From a virus (taxonomy: Duplodnaviria; Heunggongvirae; Uroviricota; Caudoviricetes): 20,518 bases of DNA. The notes beneath the pieces were generated by a model. That model saw only the letters and a list, made by a program, of their open reading frames with translations, was not told the DNA's origin and did not search any database. Each line of letters opens with the position of its first letter. Within the stretch, counting starts at the first letter, position 1. The stretch lies in the IMG/VR virus record IMGVR_UViG_2740892214_000001; one strand, written 5' to 3'. Shown here piece after piece: positions 9,676 to 19,207 of this stretch. The position numbers and the translations under genes are program-made.

Positions 9676-11634
9676 TTACGCCGTACATTTCACCAGACCG
9701 CGGTGATCAACTGGCGCGACACCGGCGTCAATACGCACTTTCGTTGTCACGCCATCCACACTGAAGCCCTCCATCTGATCAATATATGGCGTATCCACAC
9801 CGTTGAGATAAGCCACTTCAATCGTATCGGAGCCTTTTGACGCAGCCAGGTAGAAGGTGGTCTGGCTGTTATCATCAAGACGAGGCTCTGCAATAACGGT
9901 CGCAAAATCTTTCACCGGGTTAATAATACCGGCGTTAATGTCAGCCCCCTTGACACTTGAGGAGCGAATGACCTGGTTAGCAACAGACTCCATCGCCGTC
10001 GGTACCAGTACGAACGCAGGACGAATATTCAGATGACGCTCCCCCTCTTTCTGAACACGCATCAACTGGCGGGCTTTATCCAGCGATGCCACGTCCATTG
10101 CAGCGTCCTCCAGTACGTTTGCATGTTTCGCTTTATCGAACAGACTTACATTATCTGTGGAGATTTTCGGGTTAGACGTCAGAATGGCATAAACCAGATC
10201 GGCAATAGTGGATTTCGCCGCACGGCCCAGCTTCATCGGGACATCGGTCAGCATATTCAGATCATCATTGATAATGGCCTGACGGGTGATACTGAACAGC
10301 TCGCCATAGGTCGCCAGTGCAATAGTGGCCTGTTTATCTCCGGTGGTGACGTATTTATATTCCGCCCCTTCACGCACCTGACGCAGAGCACTGAAGCCCC
10401 CCATACCCACGCGATGGGCAATTTTAAAATCAGACAACTGACCTTTCCGCGTCCACTGTTCATAGGTTTCAGGGGCATCCTCCCAGCCCTGCAGAATGGC
10501 TTTGTTCGCAACATCCAGCAGAATATTACCGAAGTCAGACGTACTGTGTGTGAACGCCGCACCGACCATCTGCATCGGGTTATAACCGGAAACCCCAATA
10601 CCCCGTTCAGTCAGTGACATACGGGCATATTCACGCAGGGTCATCCCGTTGTAGACATTATCACGTTCGGTTTTTTCAAATCCGGCACGCGCCATCAGCG
10701 CCTGGCGGATCCCGTCCCCCACAAAATTACCGTTACCGGCATAAATATGAGCCGGGGTATTTTTATTGGATGGCGTGGACTCGCGCCCCATCTCGTTCAA
10801 CAGCTTTTCGCGGGCCTGCTCCAGCGAACATTCAGGATCGGCAAGACACTGAGCCTGCAGCGTCTGATAACGCCCGCCAAACATGGCAAACAGATCATTA
10901 ATACCGTTTACACGCGCTTTTTGCTCTGCCAGTACCTGCGCACGGATACTGTTTTCATCCACCACGGGTGCTGCTGCCTGCACTGGCGTCCGGGAGGCTG
11001 CAGGTTCATTATCCTGTACGCGTGGAGCACTGTTGCGTGGCGGAGTAATCATGTTTCGAATGGATTCCGGCATCTTTTTAAATTCCTCTGTACGTTTTGA
11101 CTGAATACATGCCATTGCCTTAACGGCTGGCGTCACCTGATCAGCAAATCCATGTGCCAGACATTCGGCACCGGACATCCAGGTCTCATCCGCCAGCATG
11201 GCAGCAATTTCATCGGTGGTTTTCCCGGTTTTCTGTGCATAAGCGGGTAACAGAACCGCCTCAACCTTATCGAGCAGGTCGGCATAGGTGCGCATGTCCT
11301 CCGCATCACCGCCCGTAAAGCCAAATGGTTTATGAATCATCATGAAGGTGTTTTCCGGCATAATGACCGGTTTTCCCACCATCGCAATGACCGACGCCAT
11401 TGACGCCGCCACACCGTCGACATAAACGGTAATGGACGCACCATGTGTTTTCAGCGCATTAAAAATGGCGATGCCTTCAAAGACATCGCCACCCGGTGAA
11501 TTGATATGGAGATTAATGTGGGTGATATCGCCCAGTGCATTCAGATCACTGATAAACTGCTTCGCTGTAACACCCCAGAAACCAATCTCGTCATAAATAT
11601 AAATATCCGCGTCACTCTGGTGACCAGCCTGCAT
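9676..11634 (-). CDS. Fused prohead protease (ClpP/S14-like) - linker/scaffold - HK97-fold major capsid protein (about 652 aa)
   Basis: Start trimmed to ATG 11632..11634 (MQAGHQSDADIYIYDEIGFWG), the first ATG after the portal stop. N-terminal domain has ClpP-like motifs (IYIYDEIG, INSPGGDV, MIHKP); a Pro/Ala/Gln-rich linker follows; the C-terminal ~330 aa resemble HK97-type major capsid proteins. Confidence 0.8.
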   Translation of the reverse strand: MQAGHQSDADIYIYDEIGFWGVTAKQFISDLNALGDITHINLHINSPGGDVFEGIAIFNALKTHGASITVYVDGVAASMASVIAMVGKPVIMPENTFMMIHKPFGFTGGDAEDMRTYADLLDKVEAVLLPAYAQKTGKTTDEIAAMLADETWMSGAECLAHGFADQVTPAVKAMACIQSKRTEEFKKMPESIRNMITPPRNSAPRVQDNEPAASRTPVQAAAPVVDENSIRAQVLAEQKARVNGINDLFAMFGGRYQTLQAQCLADPECSLEQAREKLLNEMGRESTPSNKNTPAHIYAGNGNFVGDGIRQALMARAGFEKTERDNVYNGMTLREYARMSLTERGIGVSGYNPMQMVGAAFTHSTSDFGNILLDVANKAILQGWEDAPETYEQWTRKGQLSDFKIAHRVGMGGFSALRQVREGAEYKYVTTGDKQATIALATYGELFSITRQAIINDDLNMLTDVPMKLGRAAKSTIADLVYAILTSNPKISTDNVSLFDKAKHANVLEDAAMDVASLDKARQLMRVQKEGERHLNIRPAFVLVPTAMESVANQVIRSSSVKGADINAGIINPVKDFATVIAEPRLDDNSQTTFYLAASKGSDTIEVAYLNGVDTPYIDQMEGFSVDGVTTKVRIDAGVAPVDHRGLVKCTA

Positions 11635-11647
11635 CCTGAACCAGGAA

Positions 11648-13156
11648 TTATTCTTCGGACTGGTCGTCGGTGTGCTGCGGCTCCTGTCGTTTCGTTGCGG
11701 CACTGCTGCCTCCTTTATCACTGGCCGGATCGGTATCAAATACCAGATCCAGCTTGCGGTTTTCATCAATTTCGGCCTTGCGCCGACGTTTGACATCATC
11801 CGGATTACGACCACCTGCACGTACCCAGTCTGATTCTGTCGCCGCTCCACCACGAATCTGGATTTTCCAGGCCTCAGCCTCCTTAACAGGGTCAATCCAC
11901 GGCATCACCGGTCCGGAATACACCGCGGTATACAGTGAAGAACGGTCAAGATCGCGGGGTAGCCTGATAACACCGGATGCCACAGCCTGTTTCAGCCAGG
12001 CACGGTACATCGGGCGGGTGACGGCACCAATAAACCAGTCCTGCAGGATCAGGTAGCCATCAGTGGATTCAACCAGCTCCTGACGCTGGGCGCTGTAAGT
12101 GCCGTTATAGTTGCGCGCTGTACTGGAAAAACTCAGACGACTGCCAGCCGCCACTGCACGCAACTGACCATTACGAAAAGTTTCAAGATTAGGATTGGGG
12201 CGATCCGACTTCACCATTCCGATTTCTTCGCCGGGTTTCAGATCGTCGTAAATAATGCCTGGCTGAATGGTAAGCTCGCGTTCCTTATCCTTGCTGCCAT
12301 TACCATCCGGTTCATAGCTCTGCCCGTCGCCTTTGCGGATGTACATCCCCAGAGCAGCGGCGATCCTTGCTGCAGTCAGCTCATAATCTTCATAATCTTT
12401 CAGGGCACTGAGGCGGATCAGCACACCGGACAACAAAGACGTCCCGCGCATCTGGTGCAGACGGCGAACAAATTTAAGATGCAGCATTCGCTCTGCATCC
12501 ACTTCTTTGGTTTCCATCTGCCGTCCGGATACGGGACGGCTTTTATACACCAGATATTTTTCGGGACGCCCCCAGTCATCAACAAACACGCCCTGATTCA
12601 GCCTGTTGCTCTCATCACTGGTCATGGGAATAAAGTCTGGCTCGAGCGCCTCCAGCCAGAAATGAACACCGGCAGAAGGCGTCAGGCTGTTTATGCGCCC
12701 GGAAACCATCTGGGCAAACACCTCACCATCGCGCAGCCAGGTACGCAGCATCAGACGTTCCAGCATCGGACGGGTAAACTGCCCGGTGACTTCCGGGCTG
12801 ACAGACCATTCACTCCATCGGGTGCGAATCTCCGCTGCCAGATCACGGGCAATGGCCCCATTGCGTAATACCGGATGTGGCTCGACAATAATCCCGTTTT
12901 TCCCCACCACCCGTTCTTCCAGCTTGTCAAATACACCAATAACCAGATCGTGGTTGTTATCAAGGTAACGGGCCTGCTCACGTAACGACACGGCCCCGTA
13001 CTGGCTTAGCTGGTCGGCAGTTCGGTTCTCCCGTCGGGCTTTGTGTGTCCGCGTCGTTTTTACGGCTTCATAAGCCTGGATCACCGCACGGGAACGCAGC
13101 CTTGCCGCTTTCCATCTAGGTGAAAAAACGCCAATCACATCATCAAGAATTGCCAT
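11648..13156 (-). CDS. Portal protein
   Basis: About 502 aa; start trimmed to ATG 13154..13156 (MAILDDVIGVF), which overlaps the upstream gene stop by one base. Sits between terminase/W and the capsid gene; acidic C-terminus. Family (lambda gpB-like) is inferred, not verified. Confidence 0.8.
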   Translation of the reverse strand: MAILDDVIGVFSPRWKAARLRSRAVIQAYEAVKTTRTHKARRENRTADQLSQYGAVSLREQARYLDNNHDLVIGVFDKLEERVVGKNGIIVEPHPVLRNGAIARDLAAEIRTRWSEWSVSPEVTGQFTRPMLERLMLRTWLRDGEVFAQMVSGRINSLTPSAGVHFWLEALEPDFIPMTSDESNRLNQGVFVDDWGRPEKYLVYKSRPVSGRQMETKEVDAERMLHLKFVRRLHQMRGTSLLSGVLIRLSALKDYEDYELTAARIAAALGMYIRKGDGQSYEPDGNGSKDKERELTIQPGIIYDDLKPGEEIGMVKSDRPNPNLETFRNGQLRAVAAGSRLSFSSTARNYNGTYSAQRQELVESTDGYLILQDWFIGAVTRPMYRAWLKQAVASGVIRLPRDLDRSSLYTAVYSGPVMPWIDPVKEAEAWKIQIRGGAATESDWVRAGGRNPDDVKRRRKAEIDENRKLDLVFDTDPASDKGGSSAATKRQEPQHTDDQSEE

Positions 13157-13368
13157 CAGAACCTCGCCAGCCGGTACCCGGGATGCCCCCGTCGTCGTGT
13201 AATCAGAGCCGCAAGGCGGCGCTCCCACTCCTGCCGTCCCTGCCGGATCTCAGATAAGTTTTCCATGGTCATCTGCTGACCATTAAAGGTGACGGATTTT
13301 CCGTCCAGCACCGCCATTTCAGCTTCCATATAACGCTGAATCATGGCTTCGATATCATTCTGGTTCAT
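13156..13368 (-). CDS. gpW-like head-tail joining / head completion protein
   Basis: 70 aa (MNQNDIEAMIQRYMEAEMAVLDGKSVTFNGQQMT...RRRGHPGY); size, position between large terminase and portal, and the C-terminal RRRG motif resemble lambda gpW. Start ATG overlaps the large terminase stop (ATGA). Confidence 0.55.
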   Translation of the reverse strand: MNQNDIEAMIQRYMEAEMAVLDGKSVTFNGQQMTMENLSEIRQGRQEWERRLAALITRRRGHPGYRLARF

Positions 13369-15467
13369 AACCATCCTCCGGAAGTCAGCCAGGGGTTAAC
13401 ATCGTCAGTTACTGTTTTCTTCCGTTTTTGTTTTTTAACAGGCGTGGATACCGGTTCCGGTGAGGATGACGGTTCGGTACTGTCCTGGACACACTCCAGC
13501 CAGGTTTCCCGGCTCGCCCACTCCGGTGCATCCGGCCAGCGGATCTTTTCGTATCCATGCAGAATGACCAGAGCCTCGGCATACACCATCAGGTCAAAAG
13601 CTTCGTTGGCACCGCGACCCGGCTTACTCCATTTCCCGTCACTGCTCCGCTCTTCATACGTCAGTTCGTCGTAAAACCAGCTCCCCAGCCAGTCAGGGAA
13701 ATGCACATAGCCGGGACCTGGCGAGTCACGCCATAACGCGTTATTCACCCGGTCTTTCAGTGCATCCGTCTGAAGAAGCCAGAGCGGCACATCACCTGCG
13801 GCCTGCGCCCGTCGGCCCGTTCGTCCGGTGTTATCAGGGAATGTACGGGTGATCAGTTTTGCGCGCCGGATGCTGTCGCCCTTAAACAGGTAAATACGTT
13901 TACCAAGGCCATCACGACGGCAACGACGCCAGAATTTATAGGCATTATCAGTGACCCCGTCTTCACCGCCGGAGTCCACCGCCATTGCCATCAGTCGCAT
14001 TTGTTGAGAAGGATCGGAGGCCAGCGGCCAGCTTTTATGAAAAACATCCGTCAGCAGGACATCCCAGTCTTCCGGATAGCTGGCCGGATCAATTCGCTGG
14101 CTCTCCCCGTCGCTGTCACCGCGCAATGACTGCGTGATGTTGTAACGATCAATAATCCAGCGTTCGCCACGGCTGCCATAGCCCGTTACCTGAACCACAA
14201 AACGGCGATGACGTCCCGCCTGCACATCCACTGTCGCCACAAGGAAATTAACGCCATCCGGCACACTGCGGGAAGGAACTGGCTCTGCCCGCTGCTCAAG
14301 CAGTTCACTTTTTCGTTGCTCCATGCTGGCGCGGGGAAGATAAGGTAATCCCCAGTCGGTATTGATAACCGTCTTGAGTGTTTCTTCACTTCCGGTTGTC
14401 TCGTATTCCTGTTCTGCAGTAAGCAGTTTGTAAACGAGTTGCGAGAGTGTCTGGTAAGCAGCTGCCGGACCCTCCATCCAGAATGACGCAATACGTGAGC
14501 GTCGGGGATCACCATAACGACTGCCATCCGCATTGATGGATTCACCATCCCGCAACCAGACCCCACGTCCGTTCAGCTCACGTTTGTGTTCAGGCATAAT
14601 CCGTCCTGAACAGGAAGGACACTGAATATAAGCCGCCTCACTTGCCAGCACGGGATCGGCAATATCACGGAAACCAGCAACCACATCGCCGCAGGGCTGA
14701 AAATACTCACCACAGTGTGGACAGGGCCAGTACCAGCGACGGCGATCACCACGGTTATAGAGCGACAGGATCCCCGTGGTTGGTGGAGCCTCATGCGGTG
14801 AAGTCCGTCGCCATTTCACATCCTTCACATCCCTGCCGGGGGAACTCTCCACCAACGTCATACCGCTGGACATAAATGTGGTGGTACGTTTTGAGGCAAG
14901 AGAGAAGGCATCCCCCTCGCCATCAATATCTTCCGGAAAACGGTCATAATCCGTCAGCGCGACGCATTTATAATCTGATGAGGACATGATATTGACTGAC
15001 GGCCAGCCGATTTTCAGGTAGTTGCCAGCAAGGAATGTTCTGTCATAAACGTTGTTGTCATTTTTGTTCGGACTCAGGCGACTGACCACTTCCGGGCTGA
15101 CGCGAAACGTTCTGGCGAGTCGTTTTTTGGAGTGTTCGCGGGCTTTTTCCTCCGTCATCTGAATGATCAGCATATCAGCAGGATCGCAAATCACGTTGTA
15201 AATCACCCAGCCGTCAATCAGGCCGATAGTCTTGCCGGTTCGTGCCGGGCCAACAAATATCACTGCGTCGTATTCACGCGAGGCCAGGCAGTTCATCGGC
15301 TCAATAACATACGGTGCCACCAGCGGATCCCACGGGACTGAGTTCCCGGCCCCCATGGGCACCCGCATATACTGAGCAACGGCATCAGCAACCCGCATTC
15401 GTCTCGGTGCGCGAAGGATATAACCTGAATCGGTTCGTGCTGCCTTTGCGGTTTCCTGATTCAGCAT
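13365..15467 (-). CDS. Terminase large subunit (GpA family)
   Basis: 700 aa; Walker A-like GPARTGKT; CPHCGEYFQP and WIIDRYNI segments resemble lambda gpA CPHCGEE and WLIDRQII; start ATG overlaps the small terminase stop (TAATG). Confidence 0.9.
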   Translation of the reverse strand: MLNQETAKAARTDSGYILRAPRRMRVADAVAQYMRVPMGAGNSVPWDPLVAPYVIEPMNCLASREYDAVIFVGPARTGKTIGLIDGWVIYNVICDPADMLIIQMTEEKAREHSKKRLARTFRVSPEVVSRLSPNKNDNNVYDRTFLAGNYLKIGWPSVNIMSSSDYKCVALTDYDRFPEDIDGEGDAFSLASKRTTTFMSSGMTLVESSPGRDVKDVKWRRTSPHEAPPTTGILSLYNRGDRRRWYWPCPHCGEYFQPCGDVVAGFRDIADPVLASEAAYIQCPSCSGRIMPEHKRELNGRGVWLRDGESINADGSRYGDPRRSRIASFWMEGPAAAYQTLSQLVYKLLTAEQEYETTGSEETLKTVINTDWGLPYLPRASMEQRKSELLEQRAEPVPSRSVPDGVNFLVATVDVQAGRHRRFVVQVTGYGSRGERWIIDRYNITQSLRGDSDGESQRIDPASYPEDWDVLLTDVFHKSWPLASDPSQQMRLMAMAVDSGGEDGVTDNAYKFWRRCRRDGLGKRIYLFKGDSIRRAKLITRTFPDNTGRTGRRAQAAGDVPLWLLQTDALKDRVNNALWRDSPGPGYVHFPDWLGSWFYDELTYEERSSDGKWSKPGRGANEAFDLMVYAEALVILHGYEKIRWPDAPEWASRETWLECVQDSTEPSSSPEPVSTPVKKQKRKKTVTDDVNPWLTSGGWL

Positions 15468-15961
15468 TACTCCTCCTGCTGTAATTCCTCCTCATCATCC
15501 GCACCTGCTTCAGTCACCCGCAGGGCTATCTGATCGCGCAGATCATCAATAATGGACTGAACACGGCTCACAGCGGCAGGCTGCAGACCGCAGTCACGTT
15601 CAAGAATATCCGGTAATGTCTCCAGCACCTGCACGACCGCTTTTGCCCAGATGGCAAACTCCCGTCTGACATCACTGGCCGGAATGAGTTGTGCCGTTTC
15701 CTGTTCGAACTTAAGACGCTCACGTTCAGACTGATACCAGGCTTTGCGCTCATGCGCGTCCATTTCGCCTTCTGCAACCGGCGGTGGTAATGCCAGAAAT
15801 GCCGACACAATATCAACCACCCGATAAAGCTTGAGGTTGCTTTCATGCCCCCCTGCAACGGGTAGATTTTGCAGCCTTGCCGCAGCAGTCTGGCGATGTA
15901 CACCTGACAGTGCCGCCAGTTGACTGATATTAAGCGTCAGATTTTTTAACTCTCGATCCAT
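15467..15961 (-). CDS. Terminase small subunit (Nu1-like, N-terminal HTH, acidic C-terminus)
   Basis: 164 aa immediately upstream of and coupled to the large terminase; N-terminal LNISQLAALSGVHRQTAAARL is HTH-like; GGAG SD 7 nt upstream; lies about 175 nt downstream of the cosN candidate. Confidence 0.7.
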   Translation of the reverse strand: MDRELKNLTLNISQLAALSGVHRQTAAARLQNLPVAGGHESNLKLYRVVDIVSAFLALPPPVAEGEMDAHERKAWYQSERERLKFEQETAQLIPASDVRREFAIWAKAVVQVLETLPDILERDCGLQPAAVSRVQSIIDDLRDQIALRVTEAGADDEEELQQEE

Positions 15962-16064
15962 ACCCGCTCCAGAATGTTTTAAACATGCATCTTGCGAACA
16001 ACTTTAGGCAAACGGTGTTAGTGATGAACAAAAAACAATCAAAATCGACACTACAAAAATAAAA

Positions 16065-16152
16065 CCACTGTAATATCAATCTATTACAGTAGTGGTGATG
16101 ACGAATGAAATTTCAAAAACTAGCCTTTTTCCGCGACGCTCCCGCCCCGTGG
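16065..16152 (-). other. Candidate cos site: cosN-like sequence (12-nt cohesive-end candidate GGGCGGGAGCGT on minus strand, plus 16136..16147) and cosB-like AT-rich region with a palindrome (16065..16095)
   Basis: Minus strand ACGGGGCGGGAGCGTCGCGG matches lambda cosN region ACGGGGCGGCGACCTCGCGG (as recalled) at 16 of 20 positions; followed by an AT-rich segment and a shared TTCGTCAT motif; distance to the terminase start is about 175 nt (lambda about 190). Confidence 0.55.
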
Positions 16153-16414
16153 CAGGCCACCCCACCGGAAGGACCCGCCAAAATGAGAGTGATTATCACC
16201 ATTGCTGATGAATAAATTGATGAAAATCATTGAAACGCCTTTCAGCAAGATAACGGCGACGGTCGTTGTTGAACTCCGTAACTCTGCTACTAAGGTTAAA
16301 AGCATGGCCATCTTTTGCCACCGGCAAATCTTCAATGGATTTCCCCTGCCGGTTTTTTATTCCTCACATTATCGCAGCCCCTCAGTGAAGGGCTGCTGTA
16401 ATGCCTGCTGTTAC

Positions 16415-16798
16415 TCAGTAACGACCGCGCCTTCCGGTAATTTCATACCGGCAAATACCGGACAGCCCGGGGATCGTTATCTGCAGCTGGTTAGCCAGGG
16501 AGTTAATCTCAGCGACCAACACTGGCTTCGTATAGCGCCATGCCGCCAGCCCTTGTCCACAGAAGCTCGCCATATCTTTTTTCTGATCAAACTCATGACA
16601 CTTCATATTGAGCTGCGCACTTAAGCTGTTGCGATGCTGAAGTTCTCCGGTGAAGTAGTCATCCAGGACTTTATAGGCTGCATATTTAAATCCGGGGTTT
16701 AGCCATGCTGCATAATCATAAGCAACAAACTTCCCGCCATATGTTCCACCGTGTACACCGCGCTCAGTAAAAACCACAGATTCGTGTTTTTTCTCCAT
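16415..16798 (-). CDS. Hypothetical protein (127 aa) between Rz and cos; possible KilA-N-like fragment
   Basis: ORF begins directly after the Rz TAG stop in the same frame, with no SD. Segment GTYGGKFVAYDYAAWLNPGF loosely resembles the conserved KilA-N motif (GTWVHP.LA..FA.WLSPEF) as recalled. Status as a functional gene is uncertain. Confidence 0.4.
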   Translation of the reverse strand: MEKKHESVVFTERGVHGGTYGGKFVAYDYAAWLNPGFKYAAYKVLDDYFTGELQHRNSLSAQLNMKCHEFDQKKDMASFCGQGLAAWRYTKPVLVAEINSLANQLQITIPGLSGICRYEITGRRGRY

Positions 16799-18154: not shown

Positions 18155-19207
18155 TTATTTCCCCACCAGTTCACTTACCTCTTTCACCGTCTGATTAAAC
18201 CGCTCTGACTCAAGTTCAACACCTAACGCCCGACGCCCCAGCGCCATTGCTGCTTTTATTGTGGAACCGGATCCCATAAAGAAATCAGCAACCAGATCAC
18301 CAGGGCGACTACTGGCATTGATTATTTGCCGGAGCATATCCGCCGGTTTCTCGCACGGATGTTTACCCGGGTAGAACTGAACGGGTTTATGCGTCCAGAC
18401 ATCGGTATAAGGCACGGAGACTGATACGGAGAAATAGCGCCGGAGAGATTTAAACTCATCCAGCAATTCAGAATATTTGCGATTCAGTGAATCATAAGAT
18501 GCCACCAGCTGGTGGTGTGGTTGTTCCAGTTGTTGTTCCTGAAACTTCTCTGCCGCTATACGGGAAAACAGTGCCTGTAACTTCCGATAGTCAGCCTCAT
18601 TCGGCAACTGCCACTGACTGGCACCAAACCAGTGGGAAACCATATTTTTCTTACCTGTGGCTTCGGCAATTTGTTTTGCCGTTATACCCAGTTCGGCACG
18701 AGCATCCCTGAAATACGATATCAGCGGTGCCATTATGTGCTGTTTGAGTTCCCTTTCTTTTGCTGCATAGCCGTCACTTTTGCCGCGATATGGCCCCTGG
18801 TAATGTTCAGCAAACAGAACGCGCTCTGTGGCAGGAAAATATGCGCGCAGACTTTCTTTATTACACCCATTCCAACGTCCGGACGGCTTCGCCCAGATGA
18901 TATGGTTAAGCACGTTGAAACGTTCACGCATCATGATCTCAATATCAGATGCCAGGCGATGCCCACAGAACAGATAAAGGCTTCCGGCAGGTTTTAACAC
19001 CCGCCAGAACTGGGCCAGACAGTGGTCCAGCCACTTAAGGTAATCTTCGTCCCCTTTCCACTGATTGTCCCAACCGTTGGGTTTCACCTTGAAGTACGGC
19101 GGATCGGTAACAATCAGGTCAATGGAATCATCAGGCAGGGACTGAATAAAATGCAGGCAATCAGCGTTGATTAAATCAACACTGTTTATTTTTACAGTAT
19201 TTTTCAT
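18155..19207 (-). CDS. DNA amino-methyltransferase, beta-class (N6-adenine or N4-cytosine), orphan
   Basis: 350 aa; DPPY motif (IVTDPPYF) near the N-terminus and AdoMet-binding FxGxG (DFFMGSGST) near the C-terminus; no adjacent endonuclease-like ORF; weak SD. Confidence 0.85.
   Translation of the reverse strand: MKNTVKINSVDLINADCLHFIQSLPDDSIDLIVTDPPYFKVKPNGWDNQWKGDEDYLKWLDHCLAQFWRVLKPAGSLYLFCGHRLASDIEIMMRERFNVLNHIIWAKPSGRWNGCNKESLRAYFPATERVLFAEHYQGPYRGKSDGYAAKERELKQHIMAPLISYFRDARAELGITAKQIAEATGKKNMVSHWFGASQWQLPNEADYRKLQALFSRIAAEKFQEQQLEQPHHQLVASYDSLNRKYSELLDEFKSLRRYFSVSVSVPYTDVWTHKPVQFYPGKHPCEKPADMLRQIINASSRPGDLVADFFMGSGSTIKAAMALGRRALGVELESERFNQTVKEVSELVGK

What the first reader, a model, noticed from the sequence alone, without database searches (positions are those of the whole stretch)
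16065..16152. Candidate cos site with a lambda-like cosN and a diverged 12-nt cohesive-end sequence
About 175 nt upstream of the small terminase gene the minus strand reads ACGGGGCGGGAGCGTCGCGG, matching the lambda cosN region at 16 of 20 positions but with changes inside the predicted 12-nt overhang (GGGCGGGAGCGT vs lambda GGGCGGCGACCT). Downstream is an AT-rich region with a near-perfect palindrome (CCACTGTAATA-N6-TATTACAGTAGTGG, 16065..16095) that could be a small-terminase or IHF binding site in a cosB-like region. This would place the virion chromosome ends inside the window and implies a cohesive end different from lambda's.
Basis: partly seen in the sequence, partly recalled or inferred. 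Interest (0 to 1): 0.55.

Follow-up and report, generated by a model that had tools for sequence, protein, structure and literature searches.

The report
Lambda-type cos site of a prophage
This is the DNA-packaging cut site (cos) of a common E. coli lambda-like prophage: real and correctly spotted, but it is a known kind of site, and public phage records already start at exactly this sequence.

Summary
The minus strand at 16150..16131 reads ACGGGGCGGGAGCGTCGCGG, 16/20 to lambda cosN, and a near-palindrome lies at 16065..16095.

The interpretation as a cos site is strongly supported:
- The lambda termination heptamer cosQ (GGGTCCT) sits 22 nt to the left (23 nt in lambda).
- CG dinucleotides flank both predicted nicks.
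- A Nu1-related small terminase (DUF1441), a gpA-family large terminase and a lambda-family portal follow directly.
- The same cosQ / CCACG-N12-CGCGG / spacer layout lies 85-229 nt upstream of DUF1441 terS genes in 49 distinct loci from Enterobacterales and Pasteurellaceae.
- The GenBank records of phages cdtI and Tritos begin exactly with GGGCGGGAGCGT.

The "diverged" end differs from lambda only at bp 7, 8, 9 and 11. Published work says this right half varies naturally. It differs from Gifsy-1's end at one base.

The palindrome is not conserved as such. Its centre holds the only IHF consensus in the window, at the position of lambda's I1 site between R3-, R2- and R1-like repeats.

The virion ends themselves were not measured here. 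Verdict: an ordinary, already known lambda-type cos site. Low interest.

The parts
16170..16176 (-). cosQ-like heptamer GGGTCCT (packaging-termination signal), 22 nt left of the top-strand nick
   Evidence: Identical to lambda cosQ at 48473-48479, which lies 23 nt from the nick. Found by the pattern search. Invariant in 70 cos haplotypes. GGGTCCT or AGGTACT occupies the same place in distant relatives.
16134..16149 (-). cosN core CG|GGGCGGGAGCGT|CG. The predicted nicks are between 16148/16147 on the minus strand and between 16136/16135 on the plus strand.
   Evidence: The flanking CG dinucleotides and bp 1-6 are identical to lambda. 8 of 16 positions are rotationally symmetric, against 10 of 16 in lambda.
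16136..16147 (-). Predicted 12-nt 5' cohesive end GGGCGGGAGCGT (left end). The right end would carry its complement.
   Evidence: The cdtI and Tritos records begin with this 12-mer, and both records end with ...GCCACG. It differs from lambda at bp 7, 8, 9 and 11, and from Gifsy-1 at bp 7 only.
16115..16135 (-). Conserved spacer after cosN (CGCGGAAAAAGGCTAGTTTTT), at the position of lambda I2
   Evidence: Nearly invariant in 70 haplotypes. The consensus CGCGG.aaaCGgCtggTTTT is seen across 49 unique distant loci, although CGCG[GA] and TTTT were part of the anchoring pattern. Identity with cdtI and Tritos ends at bp 33/34.
16092..16102 (-). R3-like element GTCATCACCAC (bp 46-56), the putative primary small-terminase site
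   Evidence: Same position as the conserved GTCATCATCATCAT of relatives (bp 44-57) and near lambda R3 at bp 50-65 (PMC9026076). bp 44-51 are invariant in the haplotypes.
16074..16086 (+). IHF consensus TATCAATCTATTA (WATCAANNNNTTR), bp 62-74, equivalent to lambda I1. An A-rich tract (AAAAATAAAA) lies just 5' on the same strand.
   Evidence: It is the only match in the 20.5-kb window. The core and the TT are conserved in 70 haplotypes, while the NNNN positions (bp 66, 67) vary. A TTGAT core recurs at the same place in relatives. The A-tract is shown.
16065..16095 (.). It overlaps the 3' part of R3-like and encloses the IHF core. It is specific to this lineage.
   Evidence: The outer stem pairs are broken in 10-31% of haplotypes. 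It is absent in L007, whose TerS is 100% identical, and in distant relatives.
16044..16054 (-). R2-like element GTAGTGTCGAT (bp 94-104), an inverted partial copy of R3-like
   Evidence: 9/11 inverted match to bp 49-59. Relatives carry a conserved GATGTCGAA at bp 96-106.
16017..16031 (-). R1-like element TTGTTCATCACTAAC (bp 117-131), a direct partial copy of R3-like
   Evidence: 9/11 direct match. Relatives carry a conserved GTGTTCACCATCATGG at bp 117-132.
15467..15961 (-). Small terminase (164 aa), DUF1441 / PHROG 141, remotely related to lambda Nu1
   Evidence: Pfam DUF1441, E 2.7e-41. PHROG 141, E 7e-74, plus a cross-hit to PHROG 57, E 8e-10. Lambda Nu1 is PHROG 57 and cross-hits PHROG 141, E 5.6e-8. 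There is no direct BLASTP similarity.
13365..15467 (-). Large terminase (700 aa), gpA family (ATPase plus cos endonuclease)
   Evidence: Pfam GpA_ATPase, E 4e-72, and GpA_nuclease, E 1e-85. 25% identity to lambda gpA over 623 aa, E 7e-19.

Best explanation
The segment 16017..16176 is the cos site of a lambda-like (mEp460 / phi458 / Ayreon-type) E. coli prophage. It reads cosQ - cosN - cosB on the minus strand, directly upstream of the terminase genes.

Inferred mechanism, by homology to lambda:
1. Dimers of the Nu1-related small terminase bind the R3-, R2- and R1-like repeats of cosB. IHF bends the DNA at the I1-like site at 16074..16086.
2. This anchors the gpA-type large terminase on cosN. 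The enzyme nicks the two strands 12 bp apart, between 16148/16147 on the minus strand and between 16136/16135 on the plus strand.
3. Strand separation leaves a virion left end with the 5' overhang GGGCGGGAGCGT.
4. DNA is packaged from there towards terS, that is, towards lower window coordinates.
5. Packaging ends at the next cos of the concatemer, which requires cosQ (16170..16176).

Shown here: the sequence anatomy, its conservation, the gene context and the agreement with public record ends.
Inferred only: the cleavage positions, the overhang chemistry, and IHF and TerS binding.
For: 1. Anatomy shared with lambda:
- cosQ GGGTCCT is present and spaced 22 nt from the nick, against 23 nt in lambda.
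- ACG|GGGCGG...|CGCGG matches lambda.
- CG flanks both nicks.

2. Gene context: DUF1441/Nu1-like TerS, gpA-family TerL, lambda-family portal, ClpP-capsid fusion and lambda-type tail genes.

3. Comparative evidence:
- In 42 of 65 loci that encode relatives of TerS (37-100% identity; Escherichia to Haemophilus), the best + strand match to the window's 21-mer in the whole ~5.4-kb locus lies 89-233 nt upstream of terS.
- 49 unique loci share the cosQ-like / CC(A/G)(C/A)G-N12-CGCGG / spacer layout.
- G2 and G3 are invariant while bp 4-12 vary: 27 distinct 12-mers among 49 unique loci.

4. Among 70 haplotypes with identical TerS, cosQ, bp 1-6 and the spacer are fixed. Sequence left of cosQ is mosaic.

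5. Public records are linearised at the predicted nicks:
- cdtI (AB285204) and Tritos (OV696610) start with GGGCGGGAGCGT and end with ...GCCACG.
- LLS annotates bp 1-12 of the homologous site as the cohesive end.
- Hafnia phage yong2 is cut exactly at the bottom-strand nick.

6. The same cos DNA (100% over 101 nt, 99.5% over 1.1 kb) is in phi458, a plaque-forming siphovirus (PMC9701743).

7. The differences from lambda (bp 7, 8, 9, 11) fall in the half reported as naturally variable and not needed for cleavage (PMC4669245).
Against: - No virion-end data were available for this prophage or for any phage carrying this exact terS.
- The Ayreon paper explicitly did not locate cos (PMC5764929).
- I could not read the cdtI paper, so I do not know whether the record start was measured or inferred.
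- The LLS/mEp213 end is stated by its authors to be inferred (PMC12315714).
- R3/R2/R1-like repeats within the window alone are weak: 9/11 matches, reached by 65 of 300 shuffles.
- TerL is only 25% identical to lambda gpA, so identical nick geometry is an extrapolation. Gifsy-2, which has a TerS of the same family, shows 14 nt rather than 12 between the conserved flanks.
- Part of the cross-locus conservation at the flanks was imposed by the anchoring pattern used.
Confidence: 0.9

Rival explanations
1. The palindrome at 16065..16095 is a dyad-symmetric operator bound directly by a small-terminase dimer. IHF would then play no special role.
For: The left arm starts at bp 53, inside the R3-equivalent position (lambda R3 is bp 50-65, PMC9026076). 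The inner arms CTGTAAT/ATTACAG are kept in most of the 70 haplotypes.
Against: - L007 encodes a 100% identical TerS but has no palindrome there (CCAATGCAACTAATTGATATTCCAGATA).
- Relatives with 55-70% identical TerS have no palindrome at this place. They do keep GTCATCATCATCAT, TTGAT, GATGTCGAA and GTGTTCACCATCATGG at fixed positions.
- The outer arm pairs are broken in 10-31% of haplotypes.
Confidence: 0.12
2. The palindrome plus the following T-run (minus strand ...ACUACUGUAAUA-GAUUGA-UAUUACAGUGGU UUUAUUUUU) is an intrinsic transcription terminator or attenuator upstream of terS, unrelated to packaging.
For: The consensus scan flags it as the only terminator-like site in 15800..16600. The RNA hairpin is -14.4 kcal/mol, z = -3.6, and 0 of 200 shuffles fold as well.
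Against: - Only 3 of the 12 stem pairs are G-C, and one such site is about what shuffles give (mean 0.8).
- The hairpin is not conserved in L007 or in distant relatives.
- The T-run is equally the A-tract that accompanies strong IHF sites; this comparison to the lambda H' site is from my own knowledge.
- No Rfam family matches.
- A terminator in front of the terminase genes of a late operon would have to be read through anyway.
Confidence: 0.1
3. The cos sequence is intact, but the prophage in this window is defective, so the site is a relic that is never cut in this host. Alternatively it is used only when another resident lambdoid phage supplies terminase.
For: Related sequence occurs in 2243 of 5426 complete E. 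coli genomes, and many lambdoid prophages in E. coli are known to be defective (general knowledge). The window does not show the regulatory or integration regions.
Against: All packaging, head and tail ORFs seen in the window are full length. The cos-terS region is 99.5% identical to that of the plaque-forming phage phi458 (PMC9701743).
Confidence: 0.1

Closest known systems
Bacteriophage lambda cos (cosQ-cosN-cosB; 12-nt 5' end GGGCGGCGACCT)
   Same: - Identical cosQ heptamer.
- Identical ACG before the nick and CGCGG after the overhang.
- Identical bp 1-6.
- Same order cosQ-cosN-spacer-R3-IHF-R2(inverted)-R1-terS.
- gpA-family TerL and a Nu1-related TerS.
   Different: - The overhang differs at bp 7, 8, 9 and 11.
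- The cosQ-to-nick spacing is 22 nt instead of 23.
- cosN symmetry is 8/16 instead of 10/16.
- The R sequences are unrelated (CATCA-type).
- TerS shows only profile-level similarity to Nu1, and TerL is 25% identical to gpA.
cos of phages cdtI (AB285204) and Tritos (OV696610)
   Same: 351/353 identity to cdtI to the left of the nick. The first 33 nt (cdtI) or 34 nt (Tritos) to the right are identical, including cosQ, cosN and the whole 12-mer. Both records are linearised at this nick.
   Different: From bp 34/35 onward, cosB is unrelated and TerS is only 42% identical. The two phages therefore share cosQ and cosN with the window but presumably have a different packaging-initiation specificity, like the lambda / phage 21 relationship.
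cos of mEp460 / Ayreon / phi458 (same TerS) and of mEp213 / LLS (57-58% identical TerS; putative end GGGCGGCGCGCT)
   Same: phi458 is identical over the 101-nt cos core. LLS/mEp213 has the same architecture, with its cohesive end annotated at the homologous position (PMC12315714).
   Different: In LLS-type phages the R1-like repeat overlaps the terS start codon, 129 nt from the nick. The window lineage has 57 more bp, 186 nt from the nick. For Ayreon the authors did not locate cos (PMC5764929).
Salmonella phage Gifsy-1 cos (end GGGCGGCAGCGT)
   Same: The overhang is 11/12 identical, differing at bp 7 only. cosQ and the flanking CGs are the same. Gifsy-1 is listed among the lambda-like cos phages, with differences from lambda at bp 8, 9 and 11 (PMC4669245).
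   Different: Gifsy-1 has a phage-21/Nu1-type TerS and lambda/21-type head genes, not DUF1441 with a ClpP-capsid fusion.

Membership tests
lambda-like cos site (12-nt 5' cohesive ends, as defined by Feiss et al., PMC4669245) | [quoted passage not shown] | tested here: met
   GGGCGGGAGCGT against GGGCGGCGACCT: 8/12 identical, bp 1-6 identical, differences at bp 7, 8, 9 and 11.
lambda-like cos site (12-nt 5' cohesive ends, as defined by Feiss et al., PMC4669245) | Conserved 5'-CG-3' dinucleotides flanking both nick positions | tested here: met
   CG|GGGCGGGAGCGT|CG at 16149..16134. Conserved across relatives (partly imposed by the anchoring pattern).
lambda-like cos site (12-nt 5' cohesive ends, as defined by Feiss et al., PMC4669245) | The 7-bp cosQ element upstream of cosN | tested here: met
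   GGGTCCT at 16176..16170, 22 nt from the nick. Invariant in 70 haplotypes.
lambda-like cos site (12-nt 5' cohesive ends, as defined by Feiss et al., PMC4669245) | A cosB between cosN and terS with R3 - IHF site - R2 (inverted) - R1 | tested here: inconclusive
   The IHF consensus is present and unique in the window. R-like repeats sit at the positions conserved in relatives, but within the window they match only 9/11, which is not above shuffles. Protein binding was not tested.
lambda-like cos site (12-nt 5' cohesive ends, as defined by Feiss et al., PMC4669245) | Adjacent terminase of the gpA (TerL) / Nu1 (TerS) type | tested here: met
   Pfam GpA_ATPase and GpA_nuclease. 25% identity to gpA, E 7e-19. 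TerS and Nu1 give reciprocal PHROG cross-hits.
lambda-like cos site (12-nt 5' cohesive ends, as defined by Feiss et al., PMC4669245) | Virion DNA actually ends here with 12-nt 5' protruding complementary ends | not testable with these tools
   The only evidence is indirect: the cdtI, Tritos, LLS and yong2 records are linearised at the predicted nicks. How those ends were determined is unknown to me or stated to be inferred.
IHF binding site (lambda I1-type) | Match to WATCAANNNNTTR with a 5' A/T-rich tract, located between inverted TerS sites | tested here: met
   TATCAATCTATTA at 16074..16086 is the only match in the window, with 0.49 expected window-wide. The A-tract AAAAATAAAA lies 5' of it. 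The core is conserved and the NNNN positions vary in the haplotypes. Binding was not tested.
Rho-independent terminator (considered for the palindrome) | A G+C-rich stem-loop followed by a U-run, conserved in relatives | tested here: not met
   A U-run and a stable hairpin (-14.4 kcal/mol) are present. However, only 3 of 12 pairs are G-C, and the hairpin is absent in L007 and in distant relatives.

The most novel reading that the evidence does not exclude
The diversity of the cohesive end may not be neutral drift. There are 27 different 12-mers among 49 related cos sites, and six variants even among phages with an identical small terminase. This could reflect selection for end incompatibility between the many lambdoid prophages that share one E. 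coli cell. Such a 'cos barcode' would lower the yield of hybrid chromosomes that start at one phage's cos and end at another's. A related possibility concerns the polymorphism hotspot at bp 53-96 of cosB, with the complementary bp 58/95 covariation. It might mark a nucleic-acid structure rather than protein sites.
Probability: 0.08. Interest if true: 0.45.

Novelty: already known. Interest (0 to 1): 0.12.

Why it matters
It fixes the virion chromosome ends of this prophage inside the window, at 16136..16147. That is useful for annotation, for orienting the genome, and for predicting which direction of host DNA could be mispackaged. It adds no new biology. Lambda-type cos sites with variable right halves of the overhang are documented, and this exact cosQ-cosN sequence already starts two deposited phage genomes. 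One minor practical point: for phages with this exact terS (Ayreon, mEp460, phi458), the records and the papers I could read (Ayreon, phi458) do not mark cos, and the comparison here places it.

Tried and rejected
- A literature search for the exact 12-mer found only unrelated eukaryotic papers.
- The cdtI paper (Asakura 2007), Vahanian et al. 2017 and Casjens & Gilcrease 2009 are not held. I could not check how the cdtI ends were determined, or whether this variant is listed in the cosN survey.
- The Tritos (LF82) paper and the phi458 paper do not discuss cos.
- Direct BLASTP of TerS against lambda Nu1, and searches of TerS and TerL against PDB sequences, gave nothing. The Nu1 relationship rests on reciprocal PHROG profile hits.
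- R-repeat detection within the window alone is not significant.
- The covariation scan of the 70 haplotypes cannot be separated from linkage: a non-complementary pair scores as high as the complementary one.
- There is no Rfam match in 15800..16600.
- Among the viral contigs sampled, the few in which the contig end falls within the fetched flank have that end 698-2014 nt upstream of terS rather than at cos. None gives independent end evidence.
- I did not run structure prediction or the large protein-database searches, because the answer did not depend on them.

Full report
**What is in the sequence.** All relevant genes lie on the minus strand.
- The minus strand at 16150..16131 reads ACGGGGCGGGAGCGTCGCGG. 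This is 16/20 identical to the lambda sequence around cosN.
- The 12-mer that corresponds to lambda's cohesive end is GGGCGGGAGCGT at 16147..16136. It ends 174 nt before the ATG of a 164-aa ORF (15961..15467).
- The near-palindrome CCACTGTAATA-N6-TATTACAGTAGTGG is at 16065..16095.
- A relaxed cosN pattern occurs once in the window, against 0.04 expected by chance. A combined cosQ-spacer-cosN pattern occurs once, against 0.00 expected.

**Gene context.**
- The 164-aa ORF is a DUF1441 protein (Pfam, E 2.7e-41) and a member of PHROG 141, 'terminase small subunit'.
- It has no pairwise similarity to lambda Nu1. The profiles do cross-hit in both directions: the window protein hits PHROG 57 at E 8e-10, and Nu1 (a PHROG 57 member) hits PHROG 141 at E 5.6e-8. 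I read this as a remote Nu1 relative.
- The next ORF (700 aa) carries both gpA domains, the ATPase and the cos endonuclease. It is 25% identical to lambda gpA over 623 residues.
- A lambda-family portal follows, then a ClpP-capsid fusion of the Gifsy-2 type and lambda-type tail genes. An Rz-type lysis gene (Pfam Phage_lysis) and a holin lie upstream.
- This is the standard position of cos in a lambdoid prophage.

**Lambda-like anatomy beyond the 20-mer.**
- Lambda's termination element cosQ is GGGTCCT at 48473-48479, 23 nt before the nick (the coordinates agree with my recollection of Wieczorek & Feiss 2001).
- The window has GGGTCCT at 16176..16170, 22 nt before the predicted nick.
- CG dinucleotides flank both predicted nick positions.
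- Of the 16 core bp, 8 are rotationally symmetric, against 10 in lambda and in Gifsy-1.

**Comparative test across species.**
- I collected 65 loci from one-genome-per-species contigs that encode relatives of the small terminase (37-100% identity; Escherichia, Citrobacter, Klebsiella, Serratia, Proteus, Pasteurella, Haemophilus, Mannheimia, Marinobacter, Psychromonas).
- In 42 of them, the best + strand match to the window's 21-mer anywhere in the ~5.4-kb locus lies 89-233 nt upstream of terS.
- Anchoring on the motif gives 49 unique sites (49 of the 65 loci were anchored, spanning Enterobacterales and Pasteurellaceae). Their common layout is:
  - a cosQ-like GGGTCCT or AGGTACT;
  - about 22 nt of spacer;
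  - CC(A/G)(C/A)G, then 12 nt, then CGCGG;
  - a conserved spacer CGCGGnAAnCGGCTnGTTTT.
- G2 and G3 of the 12-mer are invariant, while bp 4-12 vary. There are 27 different 12-mers.
- Some flank positions were imposed by my anchoring pattern, so their 'conservation' is partly circular. One search is free of that problem.

**Test with the small terminase held constant.**
- Eighty viral contigs encode a 100% identical TerS. Together with the window and the near-identical genome loci L006-L008, they yield 70 distinct cos-region haplotypes.
- cosQ, the CCACG, bp 1-6, the spacer to bp 40 and bp 44-51 never or almost never vary. Everything left of cosQ is a patchwork.
- The overhang has six variants. 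GGGCGGGAGCGT is in 58 haplotypes and GGGCGGGAGCGG in 8. The other four each occur once, with changes at bp 7, 11 or 12.
- Similarity to mEp460-type phages with other lysis modules begins at window 16180, 4 nt left of cosQ.
- Identity to cdtI and Tritos stops at bp 33/34.
- Recombination joints therefore hug the cosQ-cosN unit, as expected for a functional module.

**Public record ends.**
- The cdtI record (AB285204) starts with GGGCGGGAGCGTCGCGG... and ends with ...GGCCTGCCACG. The Tritos record (OV696610, linear) has the same start and ends with ...CCCCTGCCACG. This is exactly the predicted top-strand nick.
- Phage LLS annotates the homologous 12 nt as the '5' extended single-strand cohesive site'. 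Its authors say this is inferred (PMC12315714).
- The Hafnia phage yong2 record (57% identical TerS) ends with ...CCGAG GGGGCAGCGACA and starts with CGCGGG.... It is cut exactly at the predicted bottom-strand nick.
- phi458 carries this cos region unchanged and forms plaques (PMC9701743).
- For Ayreon, which has an identical TerS, the authors only assumed that cos lies within about 1 kb upstream of terS (PMC5764929).
- I could not read the cdtI paper, so I do not know whether its ends were measured.

**Is the cohesive end unusual?** No.
- Feiss et al. define the lambda-like group by 12-base 5' ends similar to lambda's. They state that differences at bp 7-12 are common (N15: bp 9 and 12; Gifsy-1: bp 8, 9 and 11).
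- They also state that the CGs flanking the nicks and cosQ are conserved, and that lambda terminase cuts cosN variants changed in the right half equally well (PMC4669245).
- The window differs from lambda at bp 7, 8, 9 and 11.
- It differs from Gifsy-1 only at bp 7. I verified the Gifsy-1 site in NC_010392 as GGGTCCT...TTACG|GGGCGGCAGCGT|CGCAGG.
- A survey of cosN in lambda-like phages exists (Vahanian et al. 2017, cited in PMC9026076 and PMC12315714) but is not held.

**The palindrome and cosB.**
- In relatives whose terS start lies 129-130 nt from the nick, four blocks are conserved at fixed positions:
  - GTCATCATCATCAT at bp 44-57;
  - a TTGAT core at about bp 69-76;
  - GATGTCGAA at bp 96-106, the inverse of GTCATC-type;
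  - GTGTTCACCATCATGG at bp 117-132, overlapping the start codon.
- This is the R3 - I1 - R2 (inverted) - R1 layout described for lambda, 21, phi80 and Gifsy-1 (PMC9026076).
- The window has matching elements at the same distances:
  - GTCATCACCAC at bp 46-56;
  - TTGATAT at bp 69-75;
  - GTAGTGTCGAT at bp 94-104;
  - TTGTTCATCACTAAC at bp 117-131.
- It then has 57 extra bp before the ATG.
- Within the window alone these repeats are weak: 9/11, reached in 65 of 300 shuffles.
- The only match to the IHF consensus WATCAANNNNTTR in the whole 20.5-kb window is TATCAATCTATTA at 16074..16086, in the centre of the palindrome.
  - Its core and TT are fixed in the haplotypes, while the NNNN positions vary.
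  - An A-tract precedes it, as at the strong H' site of lambda attP (my recollection).
- The palindrome as such is not conserved.
  - L007, with an identical TerS, lacks it, as do all distant relatives.
  - The outer pairs are broken in 10-31% of haplotypes.
- The hairpin plus T-run scores as terminator-like and folds at -14.4 kcal/mol. It has only 3 G-C pairs and the same lack of conservation.
- My reading is that the conserved functional element is the I1-type IHF site flanked by R sites. The dyad is a lineage-specific feature of uncertain meaning.

**Mechanism.** Inferred by homology, not shown here.
1. TerS dimers bind the R sites, and IHF bends the DNA at I1.
2. gpA-type TerL is thereby positioned on cosN. 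It nicks between 16148/16147 on the minus strand and between 16136/16135 on the plus strand.
3. The left end carries 5'-GGGCGGGAGCGT.
4. Packaging runs towards terS, that is, towards lower coordinates, and ends at the next cos with the help of cosQ.

**Verdict.**
- The site is an ordinary member of a well-described class, and public phage records already begin at this very sequence.
- Related sequence is present in 2243 of 5426 complete E. coli genomes.
- Novelty: already known. Interest: low.
- What remains open is only the direct measurement of the ends for this terS lineage and the role, if any, of the lineage-specific dyad.

Noticed in passing
L156 (Gifsy-2, NC_010393) about 170 nt upstream of terS: Gifsy-2, which has a DUF1441 TerS, shows CCACG-GGTGGCTTCGGGCT-CGCGG. 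That is 14 nt rather than 12 between the conserved flanks, so its overhang length or nick positions may differ from the rest of the family.
   Followed up: no
window 16052..16095 (bp 53-96 of cosB), compared across L072-L151: Among 70 cos haplotypes with a 100% identical small terminase, this 44-bp stretch is a polymorphism hotspot, while the flanking cosB is almost fixed. bp 58 and bp 95 covary complementarily (A-T 39, G-C 6, A-C 3 of 48 haplotypes). A non-complementary pair (bp 41/106) has equal mutual information, so linkage may be enough to explain it.
   Followed up: partly
window 16180 and 16114/16115: Recombination joints hug cos. Similarity to mEp460-type phages with other lysis modules begins 4 nt left of cosQ. 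Identity with cdtI/Tritos, which have a different cosB and a 42% identical TerS, ends at bp 33/34. cosQ-cosN is thus exchanged as a unit separate from cosB-terS, as with lambda and phage 21.
   Followed up: partly
window 16120..16335 (-): A 71-aa TTG-start ORF runs across cosQ and cosN. It hits PHROG 17397 only over the part encoded by cos DNA (aa 34-71, E 2.7e-7). It is probably a spurious ORF family created by conserved cos sequence.
   Followed up: partly
L015 and L019 (Proteus cibi, P. penneri): The best cosN-like match (18/21 in L019) lies about 830 nt upstream of terS instead of about 130. This suggests an insertion between cos and terS in these prophages.
   Followed up: no
window 15962..16016 compared with L024-L052: In most relatives the R1-like repeat GTGTTCACCATCATGG overlaps the terS start codon, which might couple TerS binding to terS translation or transcription. 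The window lineage instead has 57 additional bp between the R1-like element and the ATG.
   Followed up: no
window 9676..11895 (-) and 18155..19207 (-): There is a 739-aa fused ClpP-protease/major-capsid ORF, of the Gifsy-2 type. There is also an N6/N4 DNA methylase gene immediately upstream of the holin gene in the late region.
   Followed up: no
L153/L159 (Hafnia phage yong2, MZ516527): The record is linearised exactly at the predicted bottom-strand nick of the homologous cos. It starts with CGCGGG... and ends with ...CCGAG GGGGCAGCGACA. This supports the 12-nt geometry in a CCGAG-type variant of the site.
   Followed up: yes
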